Below are positions 2,877 through 40,632 of a stretch of DNA of 64,000 bases, in pieces. Position numbers and translations under genes: made by a program. The first letter of the stretch is position 1. Each line of letters opens with the position of its first letter. Below the pieces are notes generated by a model, which had not been told where the DNA came from, ran no database searches, and worked only from the letters and a program-made list of their open reading frames with translations. Source of the stretch: an uncultured virus (IMG/VR IMGVR_UViG_3300017754_000635) (lineage: Duplodnaviria; Heunggongvirae; Uroviricota; Caudoviricetes); the IMG/VR virus record IMGVR_UViG_3300017754_000635; one strand, given 5' to 3'.

Positions 2877-3051
2877 AAAGAACACCGAGCTTGCCATCAA
2901 CGATGGCCGGCTCGGCTTTACCAACTATCCTGACCCGTATGCCTTCCTTTAGGCCGCGCTCACGGGTCTTTCTTACGTCCAGCGTTGGTACAAAAAAGCC
3001 CCCATAGGGGGGCAAAGATTCCCACGGATATTTAATCTTCAGCTTCTTCAT
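2851..3051 (-). CDS. small hypothetical protein
   Basis: 66-aa ORF overlapping the end of the primase gene; last gene of the minus arm. Confidence 0.6.
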   Translation of the reverse strand: MKKLKIKYPWESLPPYGGFFVPTLDVRKTRERGLKEGIRVRIVGKAEPAIVDGKLGVLFTVDGRRR

Positions 3052-5986
3052 TTGACGGGAAGTCCACTCGGGCAGCAGGTTGACTGATCTTCACGACGTT
3101 GACGCGCATCGGTGGGCCGTTGGTTTTGCGTAGCAGGTCAAACTTTCTCAGGTACTCAACGCGATACAGCGCCTCCATATCCTTCTTGAAGTCGGTAAAG
3201 CTAAACCCTGTCGCTGCGCAGTGGCCTTTGAGCAGTTTCTCCTCGATGTACAAGTCAATATAGCCGGGCGATACATCATGCTCGACCCGCCCTGCCACGC
3301 GGTTACGCAGTGTGGTTTTCTCCACTATCGTATCGTCACCGAATTTCACGCCCATCGGATCAGCCGCAGAGAACACCACGAGGTTGCCGTAGAAGGATGT
3401 AGTGTAATCAGACAGAACATCTTCCGCCGTACGTACGCTTGCCTTCATCTGAGCGCGCTGGTCTGCAATCATCTTGCGAAACGCTTCCACTATGCCTTCG
3501 ATCGGCAGGTCGATAATCCCTGCGTGTTTGGAGCCGCACAGGATAGCGCCGACCACAGTTGCTGTACAACCAGCCAGCCAGAAGCGTTCATCGTCCACGA
3601 TCTTGTACAGTACCTTCAACCGCGCCTCGACCTTGGCGTACAGGGTTTTCACCCTGTCAGGGTTCTGCATGACGAACTGCGCCAGAAGAACGCCGGCCAT
3701 GCCGTAATTGTCCTCGTAGGTCTTGATGAGTTTCAGCTCGTCATCTGCCCAACGCAGCTTAGTGCGTGGGTTGTACTCCAACATACGGCGCAGCTCGCCT
3801 TCGGAAGAGTGCTTGCGCTCACCTGTCATGTAGTCCATGACCACGGTGTTTGATGCCATCAAGCCCAAGCCACGCCAGAACGAGGTATTGATACGCTCCT
3901 TGTTAGCGCCCGACTCCATACGATCTTTACCACCGCCCTCGCTGTAACTAAAGCAGAACGCTGGGAACCACTCGTTCTTGTCACGGTTCTTGGTCGTGAT
4001 CTCATCCGAGATTAGCGGCAGACTATTTAGTAGGCCAGCGCGTTGCAGCATGGCGACATCTGAAGTTGCAGCGCCTACACGATAGCGGTCAGGGTTACCC
4101 CAAATGCTTGCTGCCATGCGCAGGGTGTACGACTTACCTGTGCCTGACTCACGGTGGCCGAGGTGAAAGATCAGACCATCAATACCAGAGAAGTGCATGA
4201 TGATCGAACCAAAGCCTGTGCAAGCCATTGCCAGAAGCGGATGCAGCACCTCCGGTGAGTTCATCTTGGAAGAAGCCAAAAGCAAGAACCGCTTGCGCCA
4301 ACCGTCTAGCGTACCGTTACGTCCTGTTGATTGAAAAAGATTCTCCAGCCCCGGCATCGGCATCTTGTGCATGGAGCCGTCGGGGTTATACACCGTGTTG
4401 TTTTGTACAAACGAACCGTTCTTCTGCCAGCCGTAGCTGGACGGAACACTCATTGCACCCTTTCCTGAACTGTATGTCTCAACGCAACCGCGGACATACG
4501 CTGATAAAAATTGATCGTTACCTGCACCGAACGATGCCAAGATGTTTTGCGCTGCTAATGCTTTCGATAGTTCATCCTTACTAATGATTACTTTCTGGGG
4601 GAACAAAATATCCACTACCCCCTCGGGGCGCATGGCGACCATGTGAACAGTATGATCTCCATCGACAGGCTTTAGTATGTCCATGATAAACAGGTCATAC
4701 GGCAGGATCATTTTCAAATCCGTTGTTTTGCGCCCCTGCTCATCCGTAATCGACTCCTCGCGATATATACCGCCATTCTTTCCATACGCGAAACCACGCG
4801 GCGGAGAGGGTCGAACATACGTAAGCGTTGGTTGTGCGTCCACGCTCCCCTCGTCTTCAAACGCAACCGGAGCATCCGGTGTCGCCACTGTAATAGTTTT
4901 CTCTTCTGTATCAACTTGCACCTCCCGCCCAAGGGCTAGTGGGTTAGTGATCTTGCCAAAGTGTGGGCACTTAGTGCAGATGCCAGGGTTCTCGCTGTCG
5001 AACTTCAAGCAAGGATACGGACCTTTGATCTCCCGTATCTTCTGCGCCATGCGCTCTTTGGTGTACGGATGCTTCTCTGTCAGGAAGTTCGCAGCCTTGT
5101 TCCCATCCTCGCACTTGATAGCAATCGACAACAGGCCACGCCATAGCGGCTCCATGCCATCTTCCTGCGCGTTCTCAAGGTAGTGTATGAGCTGGCCGCA
5201 GCCCTTTCCGTCAGTGGATTTTTTGAGGATGGTACGGAAGCTGGTCGAGGAGTTCTCGAACATCTTCAGCGTGGTTGCGTTCTGCGGCAGGGTAGGCTTC
5301 TTGCCCGGCAGCATTGGCAGTGCTTCGACCGGCGGTATCTCAGTCAAGTTGTTGCGCACGAGTTCAGCAAACGCATCCAACTCAAACATCTCCGGTTCAG
5401 GTTCCTGAATAACCATAACAGGCAGCGTGATGCCATACGCACGAACGCGCTTCCAGTTAGTAGTACCCGGTACCCGCAGAACACGAGCAGCATCAGCCGG
5501 TACGCTCATGTCGATCTTCATGCCTTCCTGCTTGCACAGGCGCTTAAAGTTCTCAGCGATGGGCTTCCACGTTGCGATGTCTACGTTCTTTGTCAGCGGC
5601 CAGTAAATGTGAAAGCCGCCGCCTGAGTCAACTATCAAAGGTTTACCCAGCTTATCCAAGCCGGTCTTCTCCATGAACGCGTTGAACGCGGCCATGCCTT
5701 CTTCTTTGGTGCCGTATGTCTTCGGCCCCACTTCAGCGCAATCCAGATCAAGGAAGAAGGAGCGCATGACTTTGGCGTTCTCCGCAGTACGGTCGCCCGA
5801 GTGCTTAAACGCTGCCATCGCAAAGTACGTATCAAGTTCCGCAGCATTGAATCGCTCGGCATTAGCAGCCAGCTCTTCAAAGGACGCGTTGAATACGTGT
5901 TCCTTCTTGCGTGAATCAAATTCTGCTACGCAGTAAATATCTTCTGCGAACGGAAGGATTGCCGCTAGGAAATCAAGCGGTTTCAT
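3032..5986 (-). CDS. primase-helicase (N-terminal AEP/RepB-like primase, Cys cluster, C-terminal DUF927/Cch-like P-loop helicase)
   Basis: FFLDLD, SGGGFHIYW and ARVLRVPGT primase motifs; CxxC cluster; Walker A ESGTGKS; ISDE Walker B. Start placed at MKPLDF (5986) after a GGGGG RBS. Confidence 0.85.
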   Translation of the reverse strand: MKPLDFLAAILPFAEDIYCVAEFDSRKKEHVFNASFEELAANAERFNAAELDTYFAMAAFKHSGDRTAENAKVMRSFFLDLDCAEVGPKTYGTKEEGMAAFNAFMEKTGLDKLGKPLIVDSGGGFHIYWPLTKNVDIATWKPIAENFKRLCKQEGMKIDMSVPADAARVLRVPGTTNWKRVRAYGITLPVMVIQEPEPEMFELDAFAELVRNNLTEIPPVEALPMLPGKKPTLPQNATTLKMFENSSTSFRTILKKSTDGKGCGQLIHYLENAQEDGMEPLWRGLLSIAIKCEDGNKAANFLTEKHPYTKERMAQKIREIKGPYPCLKFDSENPGICTKCPHFGKITNPLALGREVQVDTEEKTITVATPDAPVAFEDEGSVDAQPTLTYVRPSPPRGFAYGKNGGIYREESITDEQGRKTTDLKMILPYDLFIMDILKPVDGDHTVHMVAMRPEGVVDILFPQKVIISKDELSKALAAQNILASFGAGNDQFLSAYVRGCVETYSSGKGAMSVPSSYGWQKNGSFVQNNTVYNPDGSMHKMPMPGLENLFQSTGRNGTLDGWRKRFLLLASSKMNSPEVLHPLLAMACTGFGSIIMHFSGIDGLIFHLGHRESGTGKSYTLRMAASIWGNPDRYRVGAATSDVAMLQRAGLLNSLPLISDEITTKNRDKNEWFPAFCFSYSEGGGKDRMESGANKERINTSFWRGLGLMASNTVVMDYMTGERKHSSEGELRRMLEYNPRTKLRWADDELKLIKTYEDNYGMAGVLLAQFVMQNPDRVKTLYAKVEARLKVLYKIVDDERFWLAGCTATVVGAILCGSKHAGIIDLPIEGIVEAFRKMIADQRAQMKASVRTAEDVLSDYTTSFYGNLVVFSAADPMGVKFGDDTIVEKTTLRNRVAGRVEHDVSPGYIDLYIEEKLLKGHCAATGFSFTDFKKDMEALYRVEYLRKFDLLRKTNGPPMRVNVVKISQPAARVDFPSNEEAED

Positions 5987-6000
5987 TAACGCCCCCATTG

Positions 6001-6153
6001 TTATTGTGCGTTCGTTGAGGGGTAGACTAATTGTTCGAGACGCTTGAGTATCTCTTCCTGCCACTCGTTGGGCAGCTTACCTTGCATTAACAGCAGGTCG
6101 GCGTGGCGGATAAGTTCTTCGTTGGTCAGGCTGGTAGGTTGAATGCCGCACAT
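6001..6153 (-). CDS. small hypothetical protein (50 aa, not in ORF track)
   Basis: Manual translation MCGIQPTSLTNEELIRHADLLLMQGKLPNEWQEEILKRLEQLVYPSTNAQ; fills the gap between the HTH and primase genes; upstream GGAG. Confidence 0.6.
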   Translation of the reverse strand: MCGIQPTSLTNEELIRHADLLLMQGKLPNEWQEEILKRLEQLVYPSTNAQ

Positions 6154-6404
6154 ATTTTTCTCCGCGCTTCTTCTACGTTAGGGGATACCTGCATTATTTT
6201 TAAAACAGTCGTAACCGCAGATCGGTACGGCAGTAGAACTTCGCCGCCATTGAACCAGTTGTATACCGTCTGACGCGTTGCGCCTGTCGCTTGTGCGATG
6301 AAAGTAACTGGAAGGTCAAAGTGAATAGCGTAGCGACCAAGCTGGTTGCCGAGCGTCTTTGGTGCCTTTAGTACGCTTTCTCGTACGGAATCTGAGTAGG
6401 CCAT
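6126..6404 (-). CDS. Cro/XRE-like HTH DNA-binding protein
   Basis: IAQATGATRQTVYNWFNG helix-turn-helix signature. Confidence 0.75.
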   Translation of the reverse strand: MAYSDSVRESVLKAPKTLGNQLGRYAIHFDLPVTFIAQATGATRQTVYNWFNGGEVLLPYRSAVTTVLKIMQVSPNVEEARRKICAAFNLPA

Positions 6405-6424
6405 TGTGTGTAATTAGTAGTTGA

Positions 6425-6514
6425 GGGTGCGGGGTCACTAAGCCTTGGAGGTACAACCGAAAGGATGTGCCTAGCCCCCGCTGCCGGCGTTATATGCGCC
6501 ACCTCCGGCTGGGC
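6425..6514 (-). ncRNA. candidate structured intergenic RNA with anti-Shine-Dalgarno loop
   Basis: Stems GCGGGG/CCCCGC and GCUAGGC/GCUUAGU (two G-U pairs, minus strand only) enclose ACAUCCUUUCGGUUGUACCUCCAAG; preceded by a GCCGG/CCGGC hairpin. Confidence 0.5.
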
Positions 6515-6526
6515 TGTTCGTTACTG

Positions 6527-7471
6527 TTAGTCGTCTGTTTCGTCCCAAGCATCAACGAGTTTCGACAGATCGCCGCCGCCCTTTGGCACGTTAGCGCCAA
6601 CTGCTGCTTCCTTACGAACTGCTGGCTCTGCTGCGCCTTCGTCTTCCTCGGCCTCCACCTGCGCCTTAGTCTTCTTGGTCTTTGCCGGTGGCTTGCCCGC
6701 AACTTCCGCCTGTGCTGCGGCCTGTTGCGCTGCGGTCTTGACACCATCCGTCTGAGACACCGTCATCGTGATTGCATTGATAGCTTCACGCGTCTGGCCT
6801 TTCTCAGTGGCAATACCGTACTCCTCATCAGACAGCCAGCGCAGCGCCTTGAAGAACAGCTTGGGCACAGCGGCCTTGGTATCGAACTTCATGCGGGTAA
6901 CCACAGCATCAGCACCAGCACCCATCGCAGCCATGTAGCGAGCGTAAGCCTGAAGCGGGCGGTTGTCGCCCTCTTCCTTGCCAAAGATCGACTGCGCAGG
7001 AAGCGTCAGCTGCATGACATCGCCCGACATATCGTTAGCCAAGGTAACTGCAAGACGCTGGCTGTACCGGCAAGCTCGGCTAGTGCCATCGCCCGAACCC
7101 GCGATGTTTTGTGGGCAGGAAGCACAGGTTGTGGACTGTGGCTTCTCAGCTTTCGGGTCAGGGCGCTCACCATCTGGCGACCAACAAGCCGGAGCAGATG
7201 CTTGGCCTTCCTCGTACTTGCCGAGGTAGAAGGTACGCGAGACTTTGGGAGCCGCATTGACAATGACGACATCCAGATGGCGGTCATCAATCGACGCGAC
7301 TTCTTCGCCGTTGGAGATCAGACGGAACACGCCGCCCTTGATGGAGATACGCTTACCGCTGGCACCGCTACCCGCAAGGGCTTTGGCAACAGCAGACAGT
7401 TCACCACGCTTGATGAACGATGGGAGGGACGAGGGGTTAAATTCGACAATATTTGACATGGATTTACTCAC
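6527..7471 (-). CDS. putative single-stranded DNA-binding/annealing protein
   Basis: Position in the replication module, Cys motifs (CWS, CASCPQN, ACR), long Ala/Lys/Glu linker and acidic C-terminal tail WDETDD. Confidence 0.55.
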   Translation of the reverse strand: MSKSMSNIVEFNPSSLPSFIKRGELSAVAKALAGSGASGKRISIKGGVFRLISNGEEVASIDDRHLDVVIVNAAPKVSRTFYLGKYEEGQASAPACWSPDGERPDPKAEKPQSTTCASCPQNIAGSGDGTSRACRYSQRLAVTLANDMSGDVMQLTLPAQSIFGKEEGDNRPLQAYARYMAAMGAGADAVVTRMKFDTKAAVPKLFFKALRWLSDEEYGIATEKGQTREAINAITMTVSQTDGVKTAAQQAAAQAEVAGKPPAKTKKTKAQVEAEEDEGAAEPAVRKEAAVGANVPKGGGDLSKLVDAWDETDD

Positions 7472-7872
7472 TTAGTTGGTTTACGAACACTGATCTGATA
7501 CTCGGTATCAGAGTTAAGCCCCGGCGGTACAAGCTCCGGGTTTTCTTCAAGGAACTGCGCCATGTTGCGTTGAGCAATGCGCCGCTCCAGAAGGTCAACG
7601 GCATCGTGCTGGATAACAAACTCCTTGAACGATGCCCAATCTTGGGTGGTGTAGCGGGTCTTGGTGCCAAGCATTACTGTGCCGAACTCGGTACGCATGG
7701 ACTTGGTACCAAGCGCCATCATCTGGGACTTCATGGCTTGCTCGATCTCATCTTCCTGCTTGTCGAGGTCGGCCAGCTCGGTTTCGTACTGCTGGGTTAA
7801 TTCGGACTTAGCGGCTCGGATTTTGAGGTAGACCCTAGCCAGCTTGTCCATGGGGACAATTTCTGTATTCAT
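7468..7872 (-). CDS. coiled-coil replication-module protein
   Basis: 134 aa, GGAG RBS, coupled to the putative SSB gene. Confidence 0.65.
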   Translation of the reverse strand: MNTEIVPMDKLARVYLKIRAAKSELTQQYETELADLDKQEDEIEQAMKSQMMALGTKSMRTEFGTVMLGTKTRYTTQDWASFKEFVIQHDAVDLLERRIAQRNMAQFLEENPELVPPGLNSDTEYQISVRKPTK

Positions 7873-7923: not shown

Positions 7924-9483
7924 TTAGGATGCAAGCTCTTCTTCGTATAACTTCACCAGTGCCGAGTGTTCAGTCACTCGTGTTGCTAATTGTTTAAACA
8001 TCCGGCGTTCGATGTCGCTGCCCTGAATGTGGACAACGGTCACCTTGTCGGAGTTCTGCCCCACCCGGTCGGTACGGGCGCAGCATTGCAGGTATATCTC
8101 GACCGACATGACCGGTCCCCAGAACACCACCGTATCGGCGGCTGTGAGGGTTACGCCATGGGCGGCTGACTGCGGTTGGATGACCAGTACACGCGGGGAG
8201 GGCGTGGTCTGGAACTGCTTGAAGATTGCGGTACGCTTGGCCGGGGTTACATCGCCGTGGATTTCCATGCAGTCCACATTGTTCTTTTGTAAAAATGTCT
8301 TGATGGTGTCGATGCTGTGCCGGAAGGCGGCAAAGACGATCACCTTGCGTTCGGTCTCTTCCAAGACCTCCAGCAGGACATTCAAGCGCGGGTTGCAGTC
8401 GAACTCGATGACCTCGGCGTTGTCGGTGTAGGCAGCACCGGCGCTGATCTGAAGCAGCTTGTTCACCCCGGCAGCGGCGTTGACTGCTGTTATGGTCTCC
8501 CCTGCGGCTTGCATCACCATGCGATCCTTCAGCAGCCTGTAATACTTGGCTTGCTGTGCGGTCAACGGTACTTCACGCGTCATGGTCACAACCGGCGGCA
8601 AGTCAAGGCACTGCTCTTTGGTAAACCGAATAGCTGGTTGCAACACCTCATGGACTTCAGCCCCCGCTGATTCCTTTGCCATCCACTTAAAGCGCGTCAC
8701 CTGCGACATGACCTTGTCGCGCCAGCCACTATAGAAACGCGGCACAGCTTCTGGGTTCACGAGCTTGGCTAGACCATACGCATCAAGCGGTGACTGTGCT
8801 GCCGGTGTACCTGTCATCATCCACAGCAACGTGCTTGGCTTCAGAATAGAGTTCAGCGTCTTCCACCGTTGCGTCTGCACGTTCTTATATGCGTTGGCTT
8901 CATCGACAATAACGAGATCGAATGTACCGTCTTTGATGATCTCGTCTGCGGTCAGGTTCAAGCCTTCGTAGTTCATGATGACGAACTCATAGCCGCCGCG
9001 AATCATCTCCAGCCTACGTGCTGCTTGCGTGTGGTGGGCTACGATAGCCGAGCGATGGATGATGCTGTTGTTCAAGTCCTGCAACCACGCTGACGACATG
9101 ATCGACAGCGGGCACAAGATCAAACAGCGCCGCACTTCACCCAGCTTCATCAGGTAGTCAGCAGCCCACAATGCTGAGAGCGTCTTGCCTGTGCCGGGTT
9201 CAGAGAATACAAACGACTTGCGGTTTAGCGTCAAGAATGCTGACGTTTCTATCTGGTGCGCGAACGGCTTGAAGCGCCCCGGCCAATCGTACTTGCCCTC
9301 AATAGGCGAGGGTACTTTTCTCACGCCAAGATTACGTAGCACCCGCGCTTCATCAAGACCCCAATGCACCATCACTTCACTGATGCCGTTAATGCTGTTG
9401 ACTACCTTGTGTTTGGGGATGATGCTGTACTTCTCAGGGCTACGGGTTTTTATGAGCAATGCTTTGTTATCGACGATCTGCAT
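7924..9483 (-). CDS. SNF2-family (SF2) helicase
   Basis: EPGTGKT, VIVDEA, MTGTP, HGVTLTAA and QCCARTDRVGQ motifs. Confidence 0.9.
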   Translation of the reverse strand: MQIVDNKALLIKTRSPEKYSIIPKHKVVNSINGISEVMVHWGLDEARVLRNLGVRKVPSPIEGKYDWPGRFKPFAHQIETSAFLTLNRKSFVFSEPGTGKTLSALWAADYLMKLGEVRRCLILCPLSIMSSAWLQDLNNSIIHRSAIVAHHTQAARRLEMIRGGYEFVIMNYEGLNLTADEIIKDGTFDLVIVDEANAYKNVQTQRWKTLNSILKPSTLLWMMTGTPAAQSPLDAYGLAKLVNPEAVPRFYSGWRDKVMSQVTRFKWMAKESAGAEVHEVLQPAIRFTKEQCLDLPPVVTMTREVPLTAQQAKYYRLLKDRMVMQAAGETITAVNAAAGVNKLLQISAGAAYTDNAEVIEFDCNPRLNVLLEVLEETERKVIVFAAFRHSIDTIKTFLQKNNVDCMEIHGDVTPAKRTAIFKQFQTTPSPRVLVIQPQSAAHGVTLTAADTVVFWGPVMSVEIYLQCCARTDRVGQNSDKVTVVHIQGSDIERRMFKQLATRVTEHSALVKLYEEELAS

Positions 9484-17439: not shown

Positions 17440-17703
17440 TTAGTATCCTTTCGCTTTGTTGATTGCTTCCATGGCTGTGTTGATTGCATCGCTCGTTTGC
17501 ATACCGAACACGATGTCCTCCACACACTTTCCGAGTATGACCTCAAGGCTTTCGAACTCGTGCATGGCGTTGGACAAGATGTACCCGGTGGTGTACAGCA
17601 GCGAGGGCACAGCGAGTTGCGGTTGAATATCCCCATCAGGATCGCGCAGGGCTTTCATGATGCGGTGCATGATGGCTTGCATTTGTGCTTGATCGTCACT
17701 CAT
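17440..17703 (-). CDS. hypothetical protein
   Basis: GAAAGGA RBS. Confidence 0.6.
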   Translation of the reverse strand: MSDDQAQMQAIMHRIMKALRDPDGDIQPQLAVPSLLYTTGYILSNAMHEFESLEVILGKCVEDIVFGMQTSDAINTAMEAINKAKGY

Positions 17704-18005
17704 TTGGTTGTATCCTTTCTCTCGATTGAAAGTGCTACCTCGATTGCATTAACAACGGCTTCCTTGAACTCAGTTACAAGCGTAACTAAGTCAACCGCAG
17801 TCCACTCTGCATAGGGCGCAAGCGGAACCATCTCTGCGTTGGGTGAGCCGTCAACCTTCACCGCATACTCAAGCGAAGTCTCGGCGCAGTTGTCGAGGAA
17901 CCGCAAGGGGTCAACCGGCCACCCCTCCTCGTCAATGTTGTCGAACACTTGCGACAGTGCTGCATACGCAGCGATCTCATCGATCTTGTATGAACTGATA
18001 GCCAT
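17700..18005 (-). CDS. hypothetical acidic protein
   Basis: AAGGAG RBS. Confidence 0.6.
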   Translation of the reverse strand: MAISSYKIDEIAAYAALSQVFDNIDEEGWPVDPLRFLDNCAETSLEYAVKVDGSPNAEMVPLAPYAEWTAVDLVTLVTEFKEAVVNAIEVALSIERKDTTK

Positions 18006-19063: not shown

Positions 19064-19092
19064 GGTTAGTTTCCTTTCGTGGTTGTGGTTGG

Positions 19093-24416: not shown

Positions 24417-24447
24417 AAAAAAAGCCCCCGGAGATAAAGCCGGGGGC
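24417..24447 (-). terminator. intrinsic terminator
   Basis: 8-bp GC stem followed by TTTTTTT on the minus strand. Confidence 0.75.
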
Positions 24448-24526
24448 CGAAAGCACACGGGGGTGTGCGCTCATTGCTTCTTCCAACCACGGAAGCGCCA
24501 TCGTGTAGGAGATGTACACAATGGCA
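24417..24526 (-). ncRNA. candidate ~110-nt antisense sRNA with three hairpins and an intrinsic terminator
   Basis: Promoter TTGTAC-17-TATACT (24561-24533); hairpins with loops CAUCUCC, GUGGUU and CCCC; then GCCCCCGG/CCGGGGGC followed by U7. Confidence 0.6.
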
Positions 24527-39434: not shown

Positions 39435-39761
39435 ATGGCAAATCTATTTAAATCATATCCAAGCAAAAACGTCGGCACATCACCGGCGACTGTCTATACC
39501 TGCCCGTCAGCCACACAGACCACATTGATTGGTTTGTCGATGGCAAACACTTCGGCCTCACCCATTACAGCAGACGCTTATGTGACTCGCTCTGCGGTGG
39601 ACTACTACTTGATCAAGTCGGGGGTGGTTCCAGTTGGCGGCACGTTGGTGATTGTGGGCGGTGAGCAGAAGGTAGTGTTGGAGCCGTCTGATGTGCTGAA
39701 GGTTGTGACTAGTGCTGCTTCGTCTGCGGATTGCTTCGCTTCGCTGTTGGAGATCACCTGA
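39435..39761 (+). CDS. virion fibre-associated protein
   Basis: Beta-sandwich-like, 108 aa. Confidence 0.6.
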   Translation: MANLFKSYPSKNVGTSPATVYTCPSATQTTLIGLSMANTSASPITADAYVTRSAVDYYLIKSGVVPVGGTLVIVGGEQKVVLEPSDVLKVVTSAASSADCFASLLEIT

Positions 39762-40276
39762 TGAGCTACATCGGCTCCACCCCAACGACACAGAGCTTCA
39801 TTGCTGGGACGGACTCGTTCAACGGCACGGGTTCGCAGACGAACTTTACTCTGTCGCGCTTGGTTAACTCGGTCAACGATATACAGGTCGTGGTCAACAA
39901 CGTGGTGCAATACCCACCGAATTACTCGGTATCTGGGACTACGCTAACCATCTCCCCGGCTCCGTCTGCTGGGACGAACAATGTGTACGTGCGGTATTTG
40001 AGCACAACACTGCAAACCTTTGCACCTTCGCAGGGTACGGTGGGGTTAAATCAGCTTGCAACTACAGGAACGCCTAGCACTTCGACTTATTTACGTGGTG
40101 ATATGGCTTGGGCTGCTGCTGGTGCGCAGGACAATATTTTTTACGAGAACGGTCAGACAGTGACAGCAAACCGCACGATTGGCAGTACAACTAACGCTAT
40201 GAGTTCAGGCCCGATTACGATCAATACAGGCGTAACGGTGACGATTGATACTGGCGGTAACTGGGCGATTGTATGA
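39761..40276 (+). CDS. fibre module protein (MSYIG paralogue 1)
   Basis: N-terminus paralogous to 42631..43707. Confidence 0.6.
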   Translation: MSYIGSTPTTQSFIAGTDSFNGTGSQTNFTLSRLVNSVNDIQVVVNNVVQYPPNYSVSGTTLTISPAPSAGTNNVYVRYLSTTLQTFAPSQGTVGLNQLATTGTPSTSTYLRGDMAWAAAGAQDNIFYENGQTVTANRTIGSTTNAMSSGPITINTGVTVTIDTGGNWAIV

Positions 40277-40632
40277 GTACCTTACGAGTCACAACCCTTG
40301 CAACTCAGGCTGGTGTAGAGGTCTACACGGCGAAGGCTTGGGTAAATTTTAATGGCTCAGGTACGGTTGCGATCAGAGCGAGTGGGAATGTGAGTTCGAT
40401 TACGGATAATGGTGTAGGTGACTACACTGTAAATTTTACGGTGGCGCTGGCGGATGCGAATTATGCTTTATCGGTAACACCCGGAGCGGACACAACAAAC
40501 GGGGCTGTTGGATATCAAAACAGTTTAACGGCACCAACCACAACAGCGTGTCGAATTGCAACAAGATTATTAAATACTACCCCCGCCCCGGCGGCTGATA
40601 GGGATTTGGTAATGGCTATATTTTTCCGATAA
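40273..40632 (+). CDS. fibre/receptor-binding module (AKAWVNFNG paralogue 1)
   Basis: Shared core AKAWVNFNG...NVSSITDNG.G.YTVNF. Confidence 0.65.
   Translation: MSTLRVTTLATQAGVEVYTAKAWVNFNGSGTVAIRASGNVSSITDNGVGDYTVNFTVALADANYALSVTPGADTTNGAVGYQNSLTAPTTTACRIATRLLNTTPAPAADRDLVMAIFFR

What the first reader, a model, noticed from the sequence alone, without database searches (positions are those of the whole stretch)
6425..6514. Second anti-SD RNA embedded in the replication operon, with a tRNA-like end
Seen in sequence: between the putative SSB and HTH genes, the minus strand folds into a GCCGG/CCGGC hairpin followed by a long stem (GCGGGG/CCCCGC, GA bulge, GCUAGGC/GCUUAGU with two G-U pairs) ending in unpaired ACC, which resembles a tRNA acceptor end. 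The 25-nt loop carries UCCUUUC and ACCUCC, both 16S-3'-end mimics. ATCCTTTCG matches 17445-17453 exactly, TCCTTTCG(TG)GTTGT matches 19072-19086 (GATase SD), and TCCTTTC recurs in the SDs at 17713, 23534 and 23632. ACCUCC could alternatively pair with GGAGGU in the upstream hairpin, giving a switch or pseudoknot. Established: C4 and CI antisense RNAs are cut from longer transcripts by RNase P. Inference: a processed antisense RNA silencing GAAAGGA-type early RBSs, working alongside the 24417-24526 RNA.
Basis: partly seen in the sequence, partly recalled or inferred. Interest (0 to 1): 0.75.

Follow-up and report, generated by a model that had tools for sequence, protein, structure and literature searches.

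The report
Conserved pseudoknot RNA inside phage operon
The flagged stretch is a real, evolutionarily conserved folded RNA that sits between two genes of a freshwater phage and belongs to a widespread but functionally unexplained family of phage RNAs, and there is no good evidence that it is a ribosome-site-blocking antisense RNA.

Summary
Folding energy is ordinary (z -0.19). Comparison shows it is real: 71 distinct copies from uncultured phage contigs keep 99.7% of 19 tested pairs, and 8 pairs show compensatory changes. A model built from them finds one copy in the window (90 bits) and one strong copy in each of 5 complete ~65-kb relatives.

The fold is an H-type pseudoknot with an invariant A-rich loop, one unpaired A, then a two-part hairpin with a fixed G/UGA internal loop and a variable tip.

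It reaches no Rfam threshold. It is a divergent relative of the orphan motif Proteo-phage-1 (RF03044) and of an unannotated element in the late operons of P22 and HK022.

It lies 16-35 nt before a start codon in 70 of 72 distinct copies, ahead of at least ten unrelated gene types.

The anti-SD and tRNA-end reading is weakly founded:
- CCUUU is kept in 63 of 71 tips.
- CCUCC is kept in only 3 of 71, and an ACC tail in 20 of 71.
- The most conserved part is elsewhere.

I favour a cis-acting operon-junction element. Function is untested.

The parts
6425..6520 (-). Whole conserved RNA element ('Element B'), 96 nt, read on the minus strand
   Evidence: The covariance model R1 matches it full length at 90.4 bits, E 9.8e-19, and it is the only significant hit in the window. 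71 distinct homologues are aligned in A1.
6512..6514 (-). Pseudoknot stem S1, 5' strand (GCC)
   Evidence: It pairs with 6498-6500. In the alignment the first pair is G-C in 69 sequences and C-G in 2, with none unpaired. The equivalent stem is 5 bp in Proteo-phage-1 and CCC/GGG in HK022.
6505..6509 (-).
   Evidence: It pairs with 6483-6487. The third pair is C-G in 61 sequences and G-C in 10, with none broken.
6498..6504 (-). Loop L2 (AGGU) and S1 3' strand (GGC). Together with 6505-6506 this reads GGAGGUGG, which is Shine-Dalgarno-like.
   Evidence: These positions are invariant or nearly so in A1, with A replaced by C in 4 of 71. Much of this stretch was fixed by the search pattern, so invariance there is partly by construction. 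The 15 copies found through the neighbouring protein show the same sequence.
6488..6497 (-). A-rich loop L3 (GCAUAUAACG here; GCUAAUAACA in most relatives)
   Evidence: UAAC is invariant and the three bases before it vary freely. The same ..AAnAACA-CCGGC-AGC run ends the Rfam Proteo-phage-1 consensus.
6483..6487 (-). Stem S2, 3' strand CCGGC, followed by a single unpaired A (6482)
6476..6481 (-). Lower stem P2, 5' strand GCGGGG (then unpaired or wobble G at 6475)
   Evidence: It pairs with 6429-6434. The first pair is G-C in 58, G-U in 12 and A-U in 1. The second pair is C-G in 63 and U-A in 8.
6469..6474 (-). Upper stem P3, 5' strand CUAGGC
   Evidence: It pairs with 6438-6443. Four of the 5 tested pairs show changes on both sides across 71 sequences.
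6444..6468 (-). Variable 25-nt tip with UCCUUUC (6459-6465) and ACCUCC (6447-6452)
   Evidence: Across 71 copies, CCUUU is in 63, UCCUUUC in 31 and CCUCC in 3. Tip length and sequence are otherwise variable.
6438..6443 (-). Upper stem P3, 3' strand GCUUAG
6435..6437 (-). Invariant internal-loop bases UGA
   Evidence: GUGACCCC is invariant in all 71 copies and lay outside the search pattern. A comparable UG bulge sits at the same place in the HK022/P22 and Proteo-phage-1 downstream hairpins, judged by eye on the sequences.
6429..6434 (-). Lower stem P2, 3' strand CCCCGC, followed by tail ACCC (6425-6428)
   Evidence: The tail is ACC in 20 of 71 and ACU in 40 of 71.
6527..7471 (-).
   Evidence: ORF. 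There are no Pfam, NCBIfam or PDB sequence matches, and only function-unknown PHROGs. Its stop codon lies about 12 nt before the conserved GCC (6514). 138 of 139 candidate stretches in viral contigs encode relatives.
6126..6404 (-). Downstream gene: 92-aa protein, weakly HTH-like. It starts 23 nt after the end anchor of the motif and has no Shine-Dalgarno sequence.
   Evidence: ORF. Pfam HTH matches are all below cut-off (E 0.012 and worse). All 23 distinct copies that lack an SD-like sequence may be of this gene type (one search gives 23 for each count; the overlap was not cross-checked).
2998..3013 (-). Strong intrinsic terminator ending the operon after the DUF927 primase/helicase gene (3032-6064)
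   Evidence: GCCCCCCTATGGGGGC followed by TTTTTTG. The gene is identified.

Best explanation
It is a cis-encoded structured RNA domain carried by the phage's replication-operon transcript. It is a divergent member of the superfamily that includes the orphan Rfam motif Proteo-phage-1 and an unannotated element in the late operons of P22 and HK022.

Shown:
- The fold is a compact H-type pseudoknot (S1 GCC/GGC, S2 GCCGG/CCGGC, A-rich third loop). It is joined by one A to a two-part GC-rich hairpin with a fixed G/UGA internal loop and a variable tip.
- There is one copy per genome.
- It always lies on the gene strand and always directly ahead of the next cistron.

Inferred:
- It works on the RNA that carries it as an operon-junction element.
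- The rigid knot-plus-rod marks a transcript boundary between the upstream gene (inferred, not shown, to be heavily expressed) and the downstream regulatory and primase genes.
- It would do this by partial, possibly conditional, termination or processing. The result would be a protected 3' end for the upstream message and a structured 5' leader for the downstream one, and so a fixed ratio of expression across the junction.

I put about 40% on this class of mechanism. What reads the invariant unpaired bases (RNA polymerase, a nuclease or another protein) is unknown.
For: Real and selected:
- 71 distinct copies keep 99.7% of cells paired against 90.6% in shuffles, with 8 pairs showing compensatory changes. 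Slid controls give 36-52% paired.
- RNAalifold independently recovers S2, P2 and P3.
- G-U pairs are common on the gene strand, which argues for RNA of that strand.

Copy number and range:
- One hit in the window.
- One strong hit in each of 5 of 5 complete relatives.
- 0 matches in one genome for each of 185,579 bacterial and archaeal species.

Junction behaviour:
- In 70 of 72 distinct copies a start codon follows within 16-35 nt. The distance to the previous gene ranges from -1 to 299 nt.
- Wherever I looked at copies with long upstream gaps, the extra items (a second RNA element, small ORFs, a tRNA-Gly, long hairpins) lay upstream of it.
- Downstream genes fall into at least ten unrelated types, so the element does not serve one gene's product.

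What fills the same slot elsewhere:
- In relatives without the element the slot holds a plain GC-rich hairpin. In three loci (L026-L028, identical downstream sequences) it holds a hairpin with a U-run.
- UUUU follows the lower stem within 10 nt in 33 of 71 copies.

Superfamily context:
- Genuine Proteo-phage-1 copies sit in late-operon leaders, flanked by intrinsic-terminator-like hairpins. This is seen in Pseudomonas phages Solano and phiAH14a, and by eye in many viral contigs.
- The HK022/P22 relative sits inside the late operon between rha or the lysis genes and the terminase genes.

Weak hint: the only 100%-identical contig in a freshwater metatranscriptome run spans 6431-6652. That is the end of the upstream gene plus the element, stopping in the 3' strand of the lower stem.
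Against: - No experiment or read-end data bear on function. The metatranscriptome piece is one low-depth contig (depth 2.5) whose ends prove nothing, and it may be DNA carry-over.
- The window's own copy has no U-run after the stem and is not called terminator-like. Only 21 of 71 copies have 5 or more U in the 8 nt after the stem.
- A boundary or stability role does not explain why some 25 unpaired bases are invariant. That degree of conservation is more typical of a ligand-, protein- or polymerase-binding site or a catalytic core.
- In the window the element lies near the end of its operon, not at its head. No sigma-70-like promoter was found near it.
- The core of alignment A1 was partly fixed by the search pattern.
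Confidence: 0.4

Rival explanations
1. RNA-only processive antiterminator, working like HK022 put. The nascent knot-plus-hairpin binds the host RNA polymerase that made it. It makes the polymerase resistant to pausing, intrinsic terminators and Rho for the rest of the operon.
For: - Architecture is analogous to put as described in passages of PMC9378689. Put is about 70 nt, with two stem-loops in a V shape. Its first stem has a minor-groove triplex. It acts in cis with no protein, sitting just after PL or about 270 nt after the PR start.
- Here an H-type pseudoknot with an A-rich third strand is followed, after one base, by a long bulged hairpin.
- Proteo-phage-1 copies lie upstream of terminator-like hairpins that precede the lysis genes.
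- In L087, L109 and L151 the element lies a few hundred nt downstream of a consensus TTGACA-17-TATACT promoter.
- The SD-less, C-rich, G-poor leader of the downstream gene is the kind of RNA on which Rho loads. This last point is inference.
Against: - No sequence or model similarity to put. R1 gives no hit in the HK022 immunity region where put lies; its HK022 hits are elsewhere.
- In the window only about 3.4 kb of operon and no convincing internal terminator lie downstream.
- P22 and HK022 already have a Q-type late antiterminator (annotation; for P22 by recall).
- Polymerase binding cannot be tested with these tools.
Confidence: 0.15
2. Operator or sensor for the downstream cistron. The pseudoknot binds a phage or host protein, or a small molecule, and thereby controls translation initiation of the gene that starts 16-35 nt downstream.
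For: - Spacing to the next start codon is tight (70 of 72 distinct copies).
- The unpaired bases are invariant.
- The fold is pseudoknot plus helix, as in small riboswitch aptamers and in the T4 gene 32 operator. The latter is mentioned in section 2.6 of PMC10690425.
- The element carries an SD-like GGAGGUGG and a CCUUU motif.
Against: - Downstream genes are unrelated to each other.
- 23 of 71 copies with a called downstream start precede genes with no Shine-Dalgarno sequence to sequester.
- Neither GGAGG nor the short spacing is kept in the HK022/P22 and Proteo-phage-1 relatives.
- No alternative pairing that would occlude the start region was found.
Confidence: 0.15
3. A discrete small RNA is cut out of the operon transcript (RNase P at a tRNA-like end), and its tip (UCCUUUC, ACCUCC) pairs in trans with GAAAGGA-type ribosome-binding sites of early genes to silence them.
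For: - CCUUU is kept in 63 of 71 tips at a fixed position.
- GAAAGGA is a real Shine-Dalgarno sequence at 5 of 6 sites in the early region.
- The 9-mer ATCCTTTCG matches one of them exactly.
- In L103 a tRNA-Gly abuts the element, so tRNA processing would free its 5' end there.
Against: - TCCTTTC occurs at the chance count (7 against 6.8). Any pyrimidine loop is complementary to Shine-Dalgarno sequences.
- CCUCC is in only 3 of 71 tips, and the ACC tail in only 20 of 71.
- The tip is the least conserved part, and the invariant core has no anti-SD character.
- There is no match to C4 or other antisense families.
- A 7-nt loop would have to compete with ribosomes themselves (inference).
Confidence: 0.08
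4. A new self-cleaving ribozyme that cuts the polycistronic RNA at the junction.
For: - Many invariant unpaired bases sit around a pseudoknot and an internal loop.
- The topology (hairpin or pseudoknot, short linker, bipartite hairpin with variable tip) recalls the pistol ribozyme (recalled, not tested).
- Phage intergenic location.
Against: - No match to any Rfam ribozyme family, even at E<=10.
- The prior for a new class is low.
- Nothing here can test cleavage.
Confidence: 0.05
5. A DNA-level signal (replication origin or single-strand hairpin recognised by the neighbouring primase/helicase) rather than an RNA.
For: - One copy per genome, within the replication module, next to helicase, primase and exonuclease genes.
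Against: - G-U (G-T) pairs are abundant on one strand only. One P3 pair is G-U or U-G in 33 of 71 sequences, and G-U is invariant at G46/U91. They would be A-C mismatches on the other strand.
- Relatives lie in late operons far from replication genes.
- Many close relatives of this phage lack the element (65 of 80 protein-anchored loci).
Confidence: 0.03

Closest known systems
Proteo-phage-1 RNA motif (Rfam RF03044; typed 'Gene; sRNA'; function unknown; attribution to the Weinberg et al. 2017 survey is by recall)
   Same: - Same H-type pseudoknot topology, with an identical second stem GCCGG/CCGGC.
- Same 3' run ..AAnAACA-CCGGC-AGC.
- Followed at once by a two-part GC-rich hairpin with a small UG(A) bulge on the 3' side.
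- In 5 of 5 complete relatives of the window's phage the best RF03044 hit falls on this element.
- R1's best hit in 7 of 7 Proteo-phage-1 loci overlaps the motif.
- Both are phage-borne, intergenic, on the gene strand and within long operons.
   Different: - Scores are far below the family cut-off (13.7-16.6 bits against 42). The window's own copy is not reported at all at E<=10.
- The 5' hairpin of RF03044 is absent.
- Stem S1 is 3 bp rather than 5.
- Loop L2 reads AGGU within GGAGGUGG.
- The extra GRAAGA-loop hairpin and flanking terminators seen in Proteo-phage-1 loci are missing.
- The setting is a replication operon of freshwater phages rather than a late leader.
Unannotated element of P22-like and lambdoid enterobacterial phages (HK022 39761-39857; P22 40194-40292)
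   Same: - Best cross-family match of the model: 25.2 and 21.9 bits, E 3e-4 and 2e-3, over all 96 positions.
- S1 is CCC/GGG. S2 is GCCAG/CUGGC, a compensated variant.
- Loop GAAAUAACA, one A, then a bipartite hairpin with a UG bulge and a CCUCC-containing tip.
   Different: - No GGAGG in the pseudoknot.
- It lies between rha or the lysis genes and the terminase genes of the late operon, about 125 nt or more from the next gene.
- It has no name or annotation: features under the match are 'none', hypothetical proteins or Rha.
HK022 put RNAs (putL, putR), RNA-only processive antiterminators
   Same: - About 70-90 nt, acting in cis from within an operon.
- Two-domain shape. The first domain has a third strand in a helix groove and is followed closely by a long bulged hairpin (passages of PMC9378689; structure here).
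   Different: - No detectable sequence or model similarity.
- The window's copy is not promoter-proximal.
- Polymerase binding is untested.
Intercistronic processing and stability hairpins of phage early operons (T7 RNase III sites; recalled)
   Same: - Conserved structured RNA between cistrons.
- Lies just ahead of the next ribosome-binding site.
- Would leave a 3' hairpin on the upstream message.
   Different: - Those are simple bulged hairpins without a pseudoknot or long invariant loops.
- No nuclease site is known here.
P1/P7 C4 and P4 CI antisense RNAs
   Same: - Small structured phage RNAs embedded in a longer transcript.
   Different: - No Rfam match to the C4 family or any other at threshold.
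- The ACC tail is not conserved.
- No complementary target repeats flank the element.

Membership tests
Proteo-phage-1 (RF03044) | Reaches the curated gathering score (42 bits) | tested here: not met
   The window's copy is not listed at E<=10. L006's copy scores 14.6 bits. Copies in 5 complete relatives score 13.7-16.6 bits. Genuine members score 63.8-87.9 bits.
Proteo-phage-1 (RF03044) | Loop GCCGG pairs with a 3' CCGGC to close an H-type pseudoknot, with the A-rich run ..AAaAACa before it and AGCC after it | tested here: met
   S2 GCCGG/CCGGC is 100% paired, with a C-G to G-C swap in 10 of 71. The loop ends in UAAC-A/G and is followed by CCGGC-AGC, the same letters as Rfam consensus positions 66-82. 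In Rfam's own structure line this pairing is not drawn. I read it from the sequences.
Proteo-phage-1 (RF03044) | 5' hairpin 1 (GCCaGg...cCuGG with nested stem) | tested here: not met
   No counterpart is present. The element begins 8-12 nt after the upstream stop codon in 38 of 72 distinct copies.
Proteo-phage-1 (RF03044) | Stem of hairpin 2 (5 bp) flanking the GCCGG loop | tested here: inconclusive
   A 3-bp counterpart (GCC/GGC) is present. Compensatory change is seen in only 2 of 71 sequences.
   ARAGORN finds 0 genes and Rfam gives no tRNA-clan match. The tail after the stem is ACC in 20 of 71, ACU in 40 and other in 11. The bulge lies on the 3' strand, unlike a stacked tRNA acceptor/T helix (inference).
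C4/CI-type antisense RNA | Match to the curated family; complementary target sequences in the same operon | tested here: not met
   No Rfam match at gathering score or at E<=10. The only complementarity is to generic Shine-Dalgarno sequences, at the chance count.
HK022 put RNA | Sequence or structure similarity to putL/putR | tested here: not met
   R1 run with filters off on the whole HK022 genome gives no hit in the immunity or early region. Its significant hit is at 39761-39857.
HK022 put RNA | Binds RNA polymerase and suppresses downstream terminators in cis | not testable with these tools
   This needs transcription assays.
Intrinsic terminator | GC-rich hairpin followed directly by a U-run | tested here: not met
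   The window's copy is followed by ACCCUCAACUAC and is not called by the scan. Across the family, 21 of 71 have 5 or more U in 8 nt and 33 of 71 have UUUU within 10 nt.
IMES-2 (RF02035) | Match to the curated family | tested here: not met
   There is only a 27-nt hairpin match of 10.9 bits, E 1.6, in the window. In 0 of 5 complete relatives does an IMES-2 hit fall on the element.

The most novel reading that the evidence does not exclude
The whole superfamily would be a protein-independent, put-like RNA. The superfamily comprises this freshwater-phage element, Rfam's orphan Proteo-phage-1, and the unannotated P22/HK022 late-operon element carried by prophages in about a fifth of complete E. 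coli genomes. On this reading the RNA docks on the RNA polymerase that transcribes it and reprograms elongation and termination for the rest of the operon. RNA-only processive antitermination would then be a common phage strategy rather than an HK022 curiosity.
Probability: 0.12. Interest if true: 0.85.

Novelty: new variant of a known kind. Interest (0 to 1): 0.45.

Why it matters
The element adds a well-supported, sharply defined branch to an orphan family of phage RNAs that nobody has explained. That branch has 71 distinct sequences and one copy per genome. Comparing three branches shows which parts are common to all: the GCCGG/CCGGC pseudoknot, the A-rich loop, the single-base linker and the bulged hairpin. 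Those parts should hold the function.

The comparison also ties the family to P22 and HK022, phages in which a deletion or a reporter test is easy. The relative there is unannotated, although it occurs in 184 phage records and in 1120 of 5426 complete E. coli genomes.

If the family controls transcription or message boundaries inside long phage operons, it is a missing piece of phage gene regulation. If it is only a stability hairpin, it is ordinary.

Tried and rejected
- **IMES-2 kinship.** The only Rfam line for the window at E<=10 was a 27-nt hairpin match to IMES-2 (10.9 bits, E 1.6). It did not recur on the element in any of 5 relatives, so I treat it as chance.
- **tRNA-like reading.** By eye the 5' flank looks like a tRNA D-arm (recalled consensus). 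ARAGORN and Rfam find nothing, and the supposed D-loop is base-paired with covariation.
- **Tertiary pairing of GGAGGUGG with the tip (ACCUCC, CACCU, CCUUU).** It is no better than for shuffled tips. The 4 copies with GGCGG show no compensating change.
- **Close DNA relatives among deposited phages.** None found. The protein-level matches of the upstream gene are all below 60% identity.
- **Bacterial and archaeal genomes.** 0 pattern matches. A looser pattern was not tried.
- **Own assembly.** It is not held. The nearest record G001 has no match to 6000-7000.
- **Coliphage N4.** No RF03044 or R1 hit at E<=1.
- **Second element ('Element A') in the window.** Absent.
- **Sequencing runs.** Three of the four runs laid are probably DNA, all are contigs, and no read ends are available. 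Uncovered parts say nothing.
- **Literature by sequence strings.** No relevant paper was found. One search returned 63 papers holding one of the strings, and the 10 listed are unrelated. One search returned 0 papers. 'IMES-2' gave 2 irrelevant papers and 'Proteo-phage-1' gave 0.
- **The 2023 catalogue of about 10,000 viral candidate RNAs (PMC10690425).** It may contain this motif. Six supplementary files searched held none of the strings or contig names, and three files could not be searched.
- **The Weinberg 2017 supplement.** It could not be read, and the main text does not name the motif.
- **A 2026 preprint on prophage Pas sRNAs.** It has no passage on the rha-terminase region.
- **Family assignment of the 314-aa 'SSB'.** Nothing in Pfam, NCBIfam or PDB sequences, and only function-unknown PHROGs.
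Full report
**What is there**

The window is a phage-like genome. The genes around the finding run on the minus strand, in this order:
- an SNF2 helicase (7924-9483);
- a DUF7307-like protein (7468-7872);
- the flagged gap;
- a 92-aa protein that is weakly HTH-like (6126-6404);
- a DUF927 primase/helicase (3032-6064);
- a strong terminator at 3013-2998.

The 'SSB' label has no family support.

**Is it more than chance?**

By energy, no. The fold is -33.5 kcal/mol, with z -0.19, and 72 of 200 shuffles fold as well. The plus strand is no different.

By comparison, clearly yes.
- A search with the 314-aa protein found 138 related stretches among 139 candidates in viral contigs, of which 80 were kept.
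- In 15 of those 80 loci the DNA after the gene carries the same element, with a nearly invariant core and a freely varying upper stem.
- A degenerate pattern of the core then found 97 stretches in viral contigs.
- Together with the first set and the window, these gave 113 locus records. Several contigs were fetched twice. They yield 72 distinct sequences, of which 71 were aligned as A1.

On A1 the 19 pairs I named are standard pairs in 99.7% of cells, against 90.6% after shuffling and 36-52% when partners are slid by 1-3 columns. Eight pairs show changes on both sides. Examples:
- the third pair of the first hairpin is C-G in 61 sequences and G-C in 10;
- the two outer pairs of the lower stem run G-C / G-U / A-U (58/12/1) and C-G / U-A (63/8);
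- four of five upper-stem pairs covary.

RNAalifold finds the same helices on its own.

One caveat applies. The search pattern fixed about 20 core positions, so invariance there is partly by construction. The covarying positions and the 3' half (GUGACCCC...) lay outside the pattern.

G-U pairs are frequent on this strand. They would be A-C mismatches on the other strand, so the structure belongs to the gene-strand RNA.

**Anatomy**

| Part | Window coordinates (minus strand) | Sequence or note |
|---|---|---|
| S1 | 6514-6512 pairs with 6500-6498 | GCC / GGC |
| S2 | 6509-6505 pairs with 6487-6483 | GCCGG / CCGGC |
| Loop 1 | between S1 and S2 | CA |
| Loop 2 | between S2 and S1 | AGGU |
| A-rich loop 3 | 6497-6488 | most relatives read GCUAAUAACA |
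| Linker | 6482 | one unpaired A |
| Lower stem P2 | 6481-6476 and 6434-6429 | GCGGGG / CCCCGC |
| Internal loop | 6475 and 6437-6435 | G opposite invariant UGA |
| Upper stem P3 | 6474-6469 and 6443-6438 | covarying |
| Tip | 6468-6444 | variable |

S1 and S2 together make an H-type pseudoknot. S1 rests on only two compensated sequences here. It has clear counterparts in the related families described below.

A covariance model built from A1 finds one significant hit in the window (90.4 bits). It finds one strong hit in each of 5 of 5 complete ~65-kb relatives. The pattern is absent from one genome for each of 185,579 bacterial and archaeal species. DNA runs that hold the stretch are freshwater, lake and drinking-water metagenomes.

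**Context**

- Among 72 distinct copies a start codon follows within 16-35 nt in 70. One locus is cut off and one start is mis-called.
- The distance back to the previous gene runs from an overlapping stop codon to 299 nt.
- The upstream gene is the 314-aa protein in 56 of 113 records. Elsewhere it is an SNF2 helicase, a Cas4-like nuclease, other proteins, or a tRNA-Gly(UCC) that abuts the element.
- The downstream gene falls into at least ten unrelated types.
- 48 copies precede a Shine-Dalgarno-like sequence and 23 do not.
- Wherever I inspected copies with long upstream gaps, the extra features lay upstream of the element.
- In L087, L109 and L151 a consensus TTGACA-17-TATACT promoter follows the helicase gene. 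After it come a different conserved hairpin ('Element A'), a small Cys-rich ORF, and then this element.
- Relatives that lack the element have, in the same slot, Element A or a plain GGGGGCUUCGGCCCCC hairpin. In three loci (L026-L028) the hairpin has a U-run.

**Kinship**

No Rfam family reaches threshold in the window. At E<=10 only a short IMES-2 hairpin match appears, and it did not recur in relatives.

Scanning a relative's copy gave a weak match to Proteo-phage-1, RF03044 (14.6 bits). In 5 of 5 complete relatives the best RF03044 hit lies on this element (13.7-16.6 bits; cut-off 42).

I fetched genuine Proteo-phage-1 copies. Of 10 loci scanned, 8 pass the cut-off at 65-88 bits. They show:
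- the same knot, with a loop GCCGG pairing to a 3' CCGGC;
- the same preceding ..AAaAACa and following AGCC;
- a two-part GC-rich hairpin with a UG bulge immediately after.

They also carry an extra 5' hairpin, a longer S1 and a further GRAAGA-loop hairpin.

In Pseudomonas phages phiAH14a and Solano the motif lies in the leader of the late operon. It sits between terminator-like hairpins and ahead of the lysis genes.

My model also hits HK022 at 39761-39857 (25.2 bits, E 3e-4) and P22 at 40194-40292 (21.9 bits). This element is unannotated. Its S2 is the compensated variant GCCAG/CUGGC, and it lies between rha or the lysis genes and the terminase genes. It occurs in 184 phage records and in prophages of 1120 of 5426 complete E. 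coli genomes.

The window's element is therefore a new, compact branch of a known but unexplained kind.

Earlier notes of this scan, from other agents and unchecked, report other Proteo-phage-1 relatives in other phages. I reached the link independently. I could not reproduce one note's mention of N4 with the two models I had.

The matches it cites are real, and 5 of the 6 other TCCTTTC sites are true ribosome-binding sites. But the count is what chance gives (7 against 6.8), and any pyrimidine loop complements such sites.

Across the family:
- CCUUU is well kept (63 of 71) at a fixed place, so the tip is not free of constraint;
- CCUCC is in 3 of 71;
- the ACC tail is in 20 of 71;
- pairing of the tip with GGAGGUGG is no better than for shuffled tips;
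- the invariant parts are elsewhere.

There is no tRNA-like or C4-like match.

The only RNA-library evidence is one 222-nt, 100%-identical, low-depth contig covering 6431-6652 in a freshwater metatranscriptome. It fits an RNA that ends at the element, but it proves nothing.

**How it most likely works**

Shown: a selected, compact fold on the operon transcript. It is present once per genome, is anchored just ahead of the next cistron, and is indifferent to what that cistron encodes.

Inferred: it acts in cis as a junction element that sets how much RNA continues from the upstream gene into the downstream ones. It would do so by partial or conditional termination or processing, leaving protected ends (about 40%).

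The invariant unpaired bases suggest that something specific reads it. The most interesting candidate is RNA polymerase itself, as with HK022 put. Put has a broadly similar two-domain shape (passages of PMC9378689) but no detectable similarity to this element. I give that about 15%.

The other readings:
- an operator or sensor for the downstream gene, about 15%;
- the trans anti-SD RNA, about 8%;
- a ribozyme, about 5%;
- a DNA signal, about 3%.

These readings total about 86%; the remainder is unassigned.

All of these need the experiments listed under next steps. HK022 in E. coli K-12 is the easiest place to run them.

Noticed in passing
L004-L010, L020, L021, L035, L038, L040, L041, L052, L070 (downstream of the 314-aa gene's homologue); also L087, L109, L111, L113, L117, L123: A second conserved RNA-like element ('Element A') reads GGGGG-AAAG-CGG...variable hairpin...CCG-YGAGUA-CCCCC-ACC. 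Its internal loop reads like a loop-E / sarcin-ricin module (AGUA opposite GAA; recalled motif). It often lies just upstream of the element studied here. In L087, L109 and L151 it starts a few bases after a consensus TTGACA-17-TATACT promoter. It is absent from the window. Rfam gave no family for the L006 copy at E<=10.
   Followed up: partly
HK022 (L306) 39761-39857; P22 (L307 = NC_002371 40194-40292): An unannotated pseudoknot-plus-hairpin element related to the one studied lies between rha or the lysis genes and the terminase genes. It is present in 184 phage records and in 1120 of 5426 complete E. coli genomes. Features under the match are 'none', hypothetical proteins or the end of a Rha gene.
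   Followed up: partly
L052 and L063, about 3500-3590 (inside their Element A): The variable part of Element A carries two hairpins with T-loop-like sequences (GGUUCGACUCC, GGUUUGAUUCC), judged by eye. ARAGORN finds no tRNA in L052.
   Followed up: partly
L103 1546-1621 (-): A tRNA-Gly (anticodon UCC) ends directly against the 5' flank of the element. tRNA processing would therefore cut the transcript right at its start.
   Followed up: yes
L087, L092, L106, L109 (between promoter or Element A and the element): Small ORFs of about 50 aa have a signal-like N-terminus and a Cys-rich C-terminal half (...CTTCCDPNGNNCN...), read by eye from the DNA.
   Followed up: no
L123 and L151, the 150-200 nt before the element: Further long imperfect hairpins (about 130-180 nt) with conserved-looking internal sequence occupy the same gap. 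They may be other structured RNAs.
   Followed up: no
That is a terminator-like hairpin at the divergence point between the minus-strand early block and the plus-strand late block.
   Followed up: no
window 6405-6424 (-) and homologous leaders: The 92-aa gene and its homologues (23 distinct copies) have no Shine-Dalgarno sequence. Their leaders are C/A-rich and G-poor (for example CCCUCAACUACUAAUUACACACA-AUG). Other early genes of the same phage use GAAAGGA.
   Followed up: partly
L304 (phiAH14a) 3265-3795, annotated CDS on the opposite strand: The deposited hypothetical protein AH14a_p55 overlaps, on the opposite strand, a region that holds a terminator, a small ORF and the Proteo-phage-1 RNA. 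The CDS call looks doubtful.
   Followed up: no
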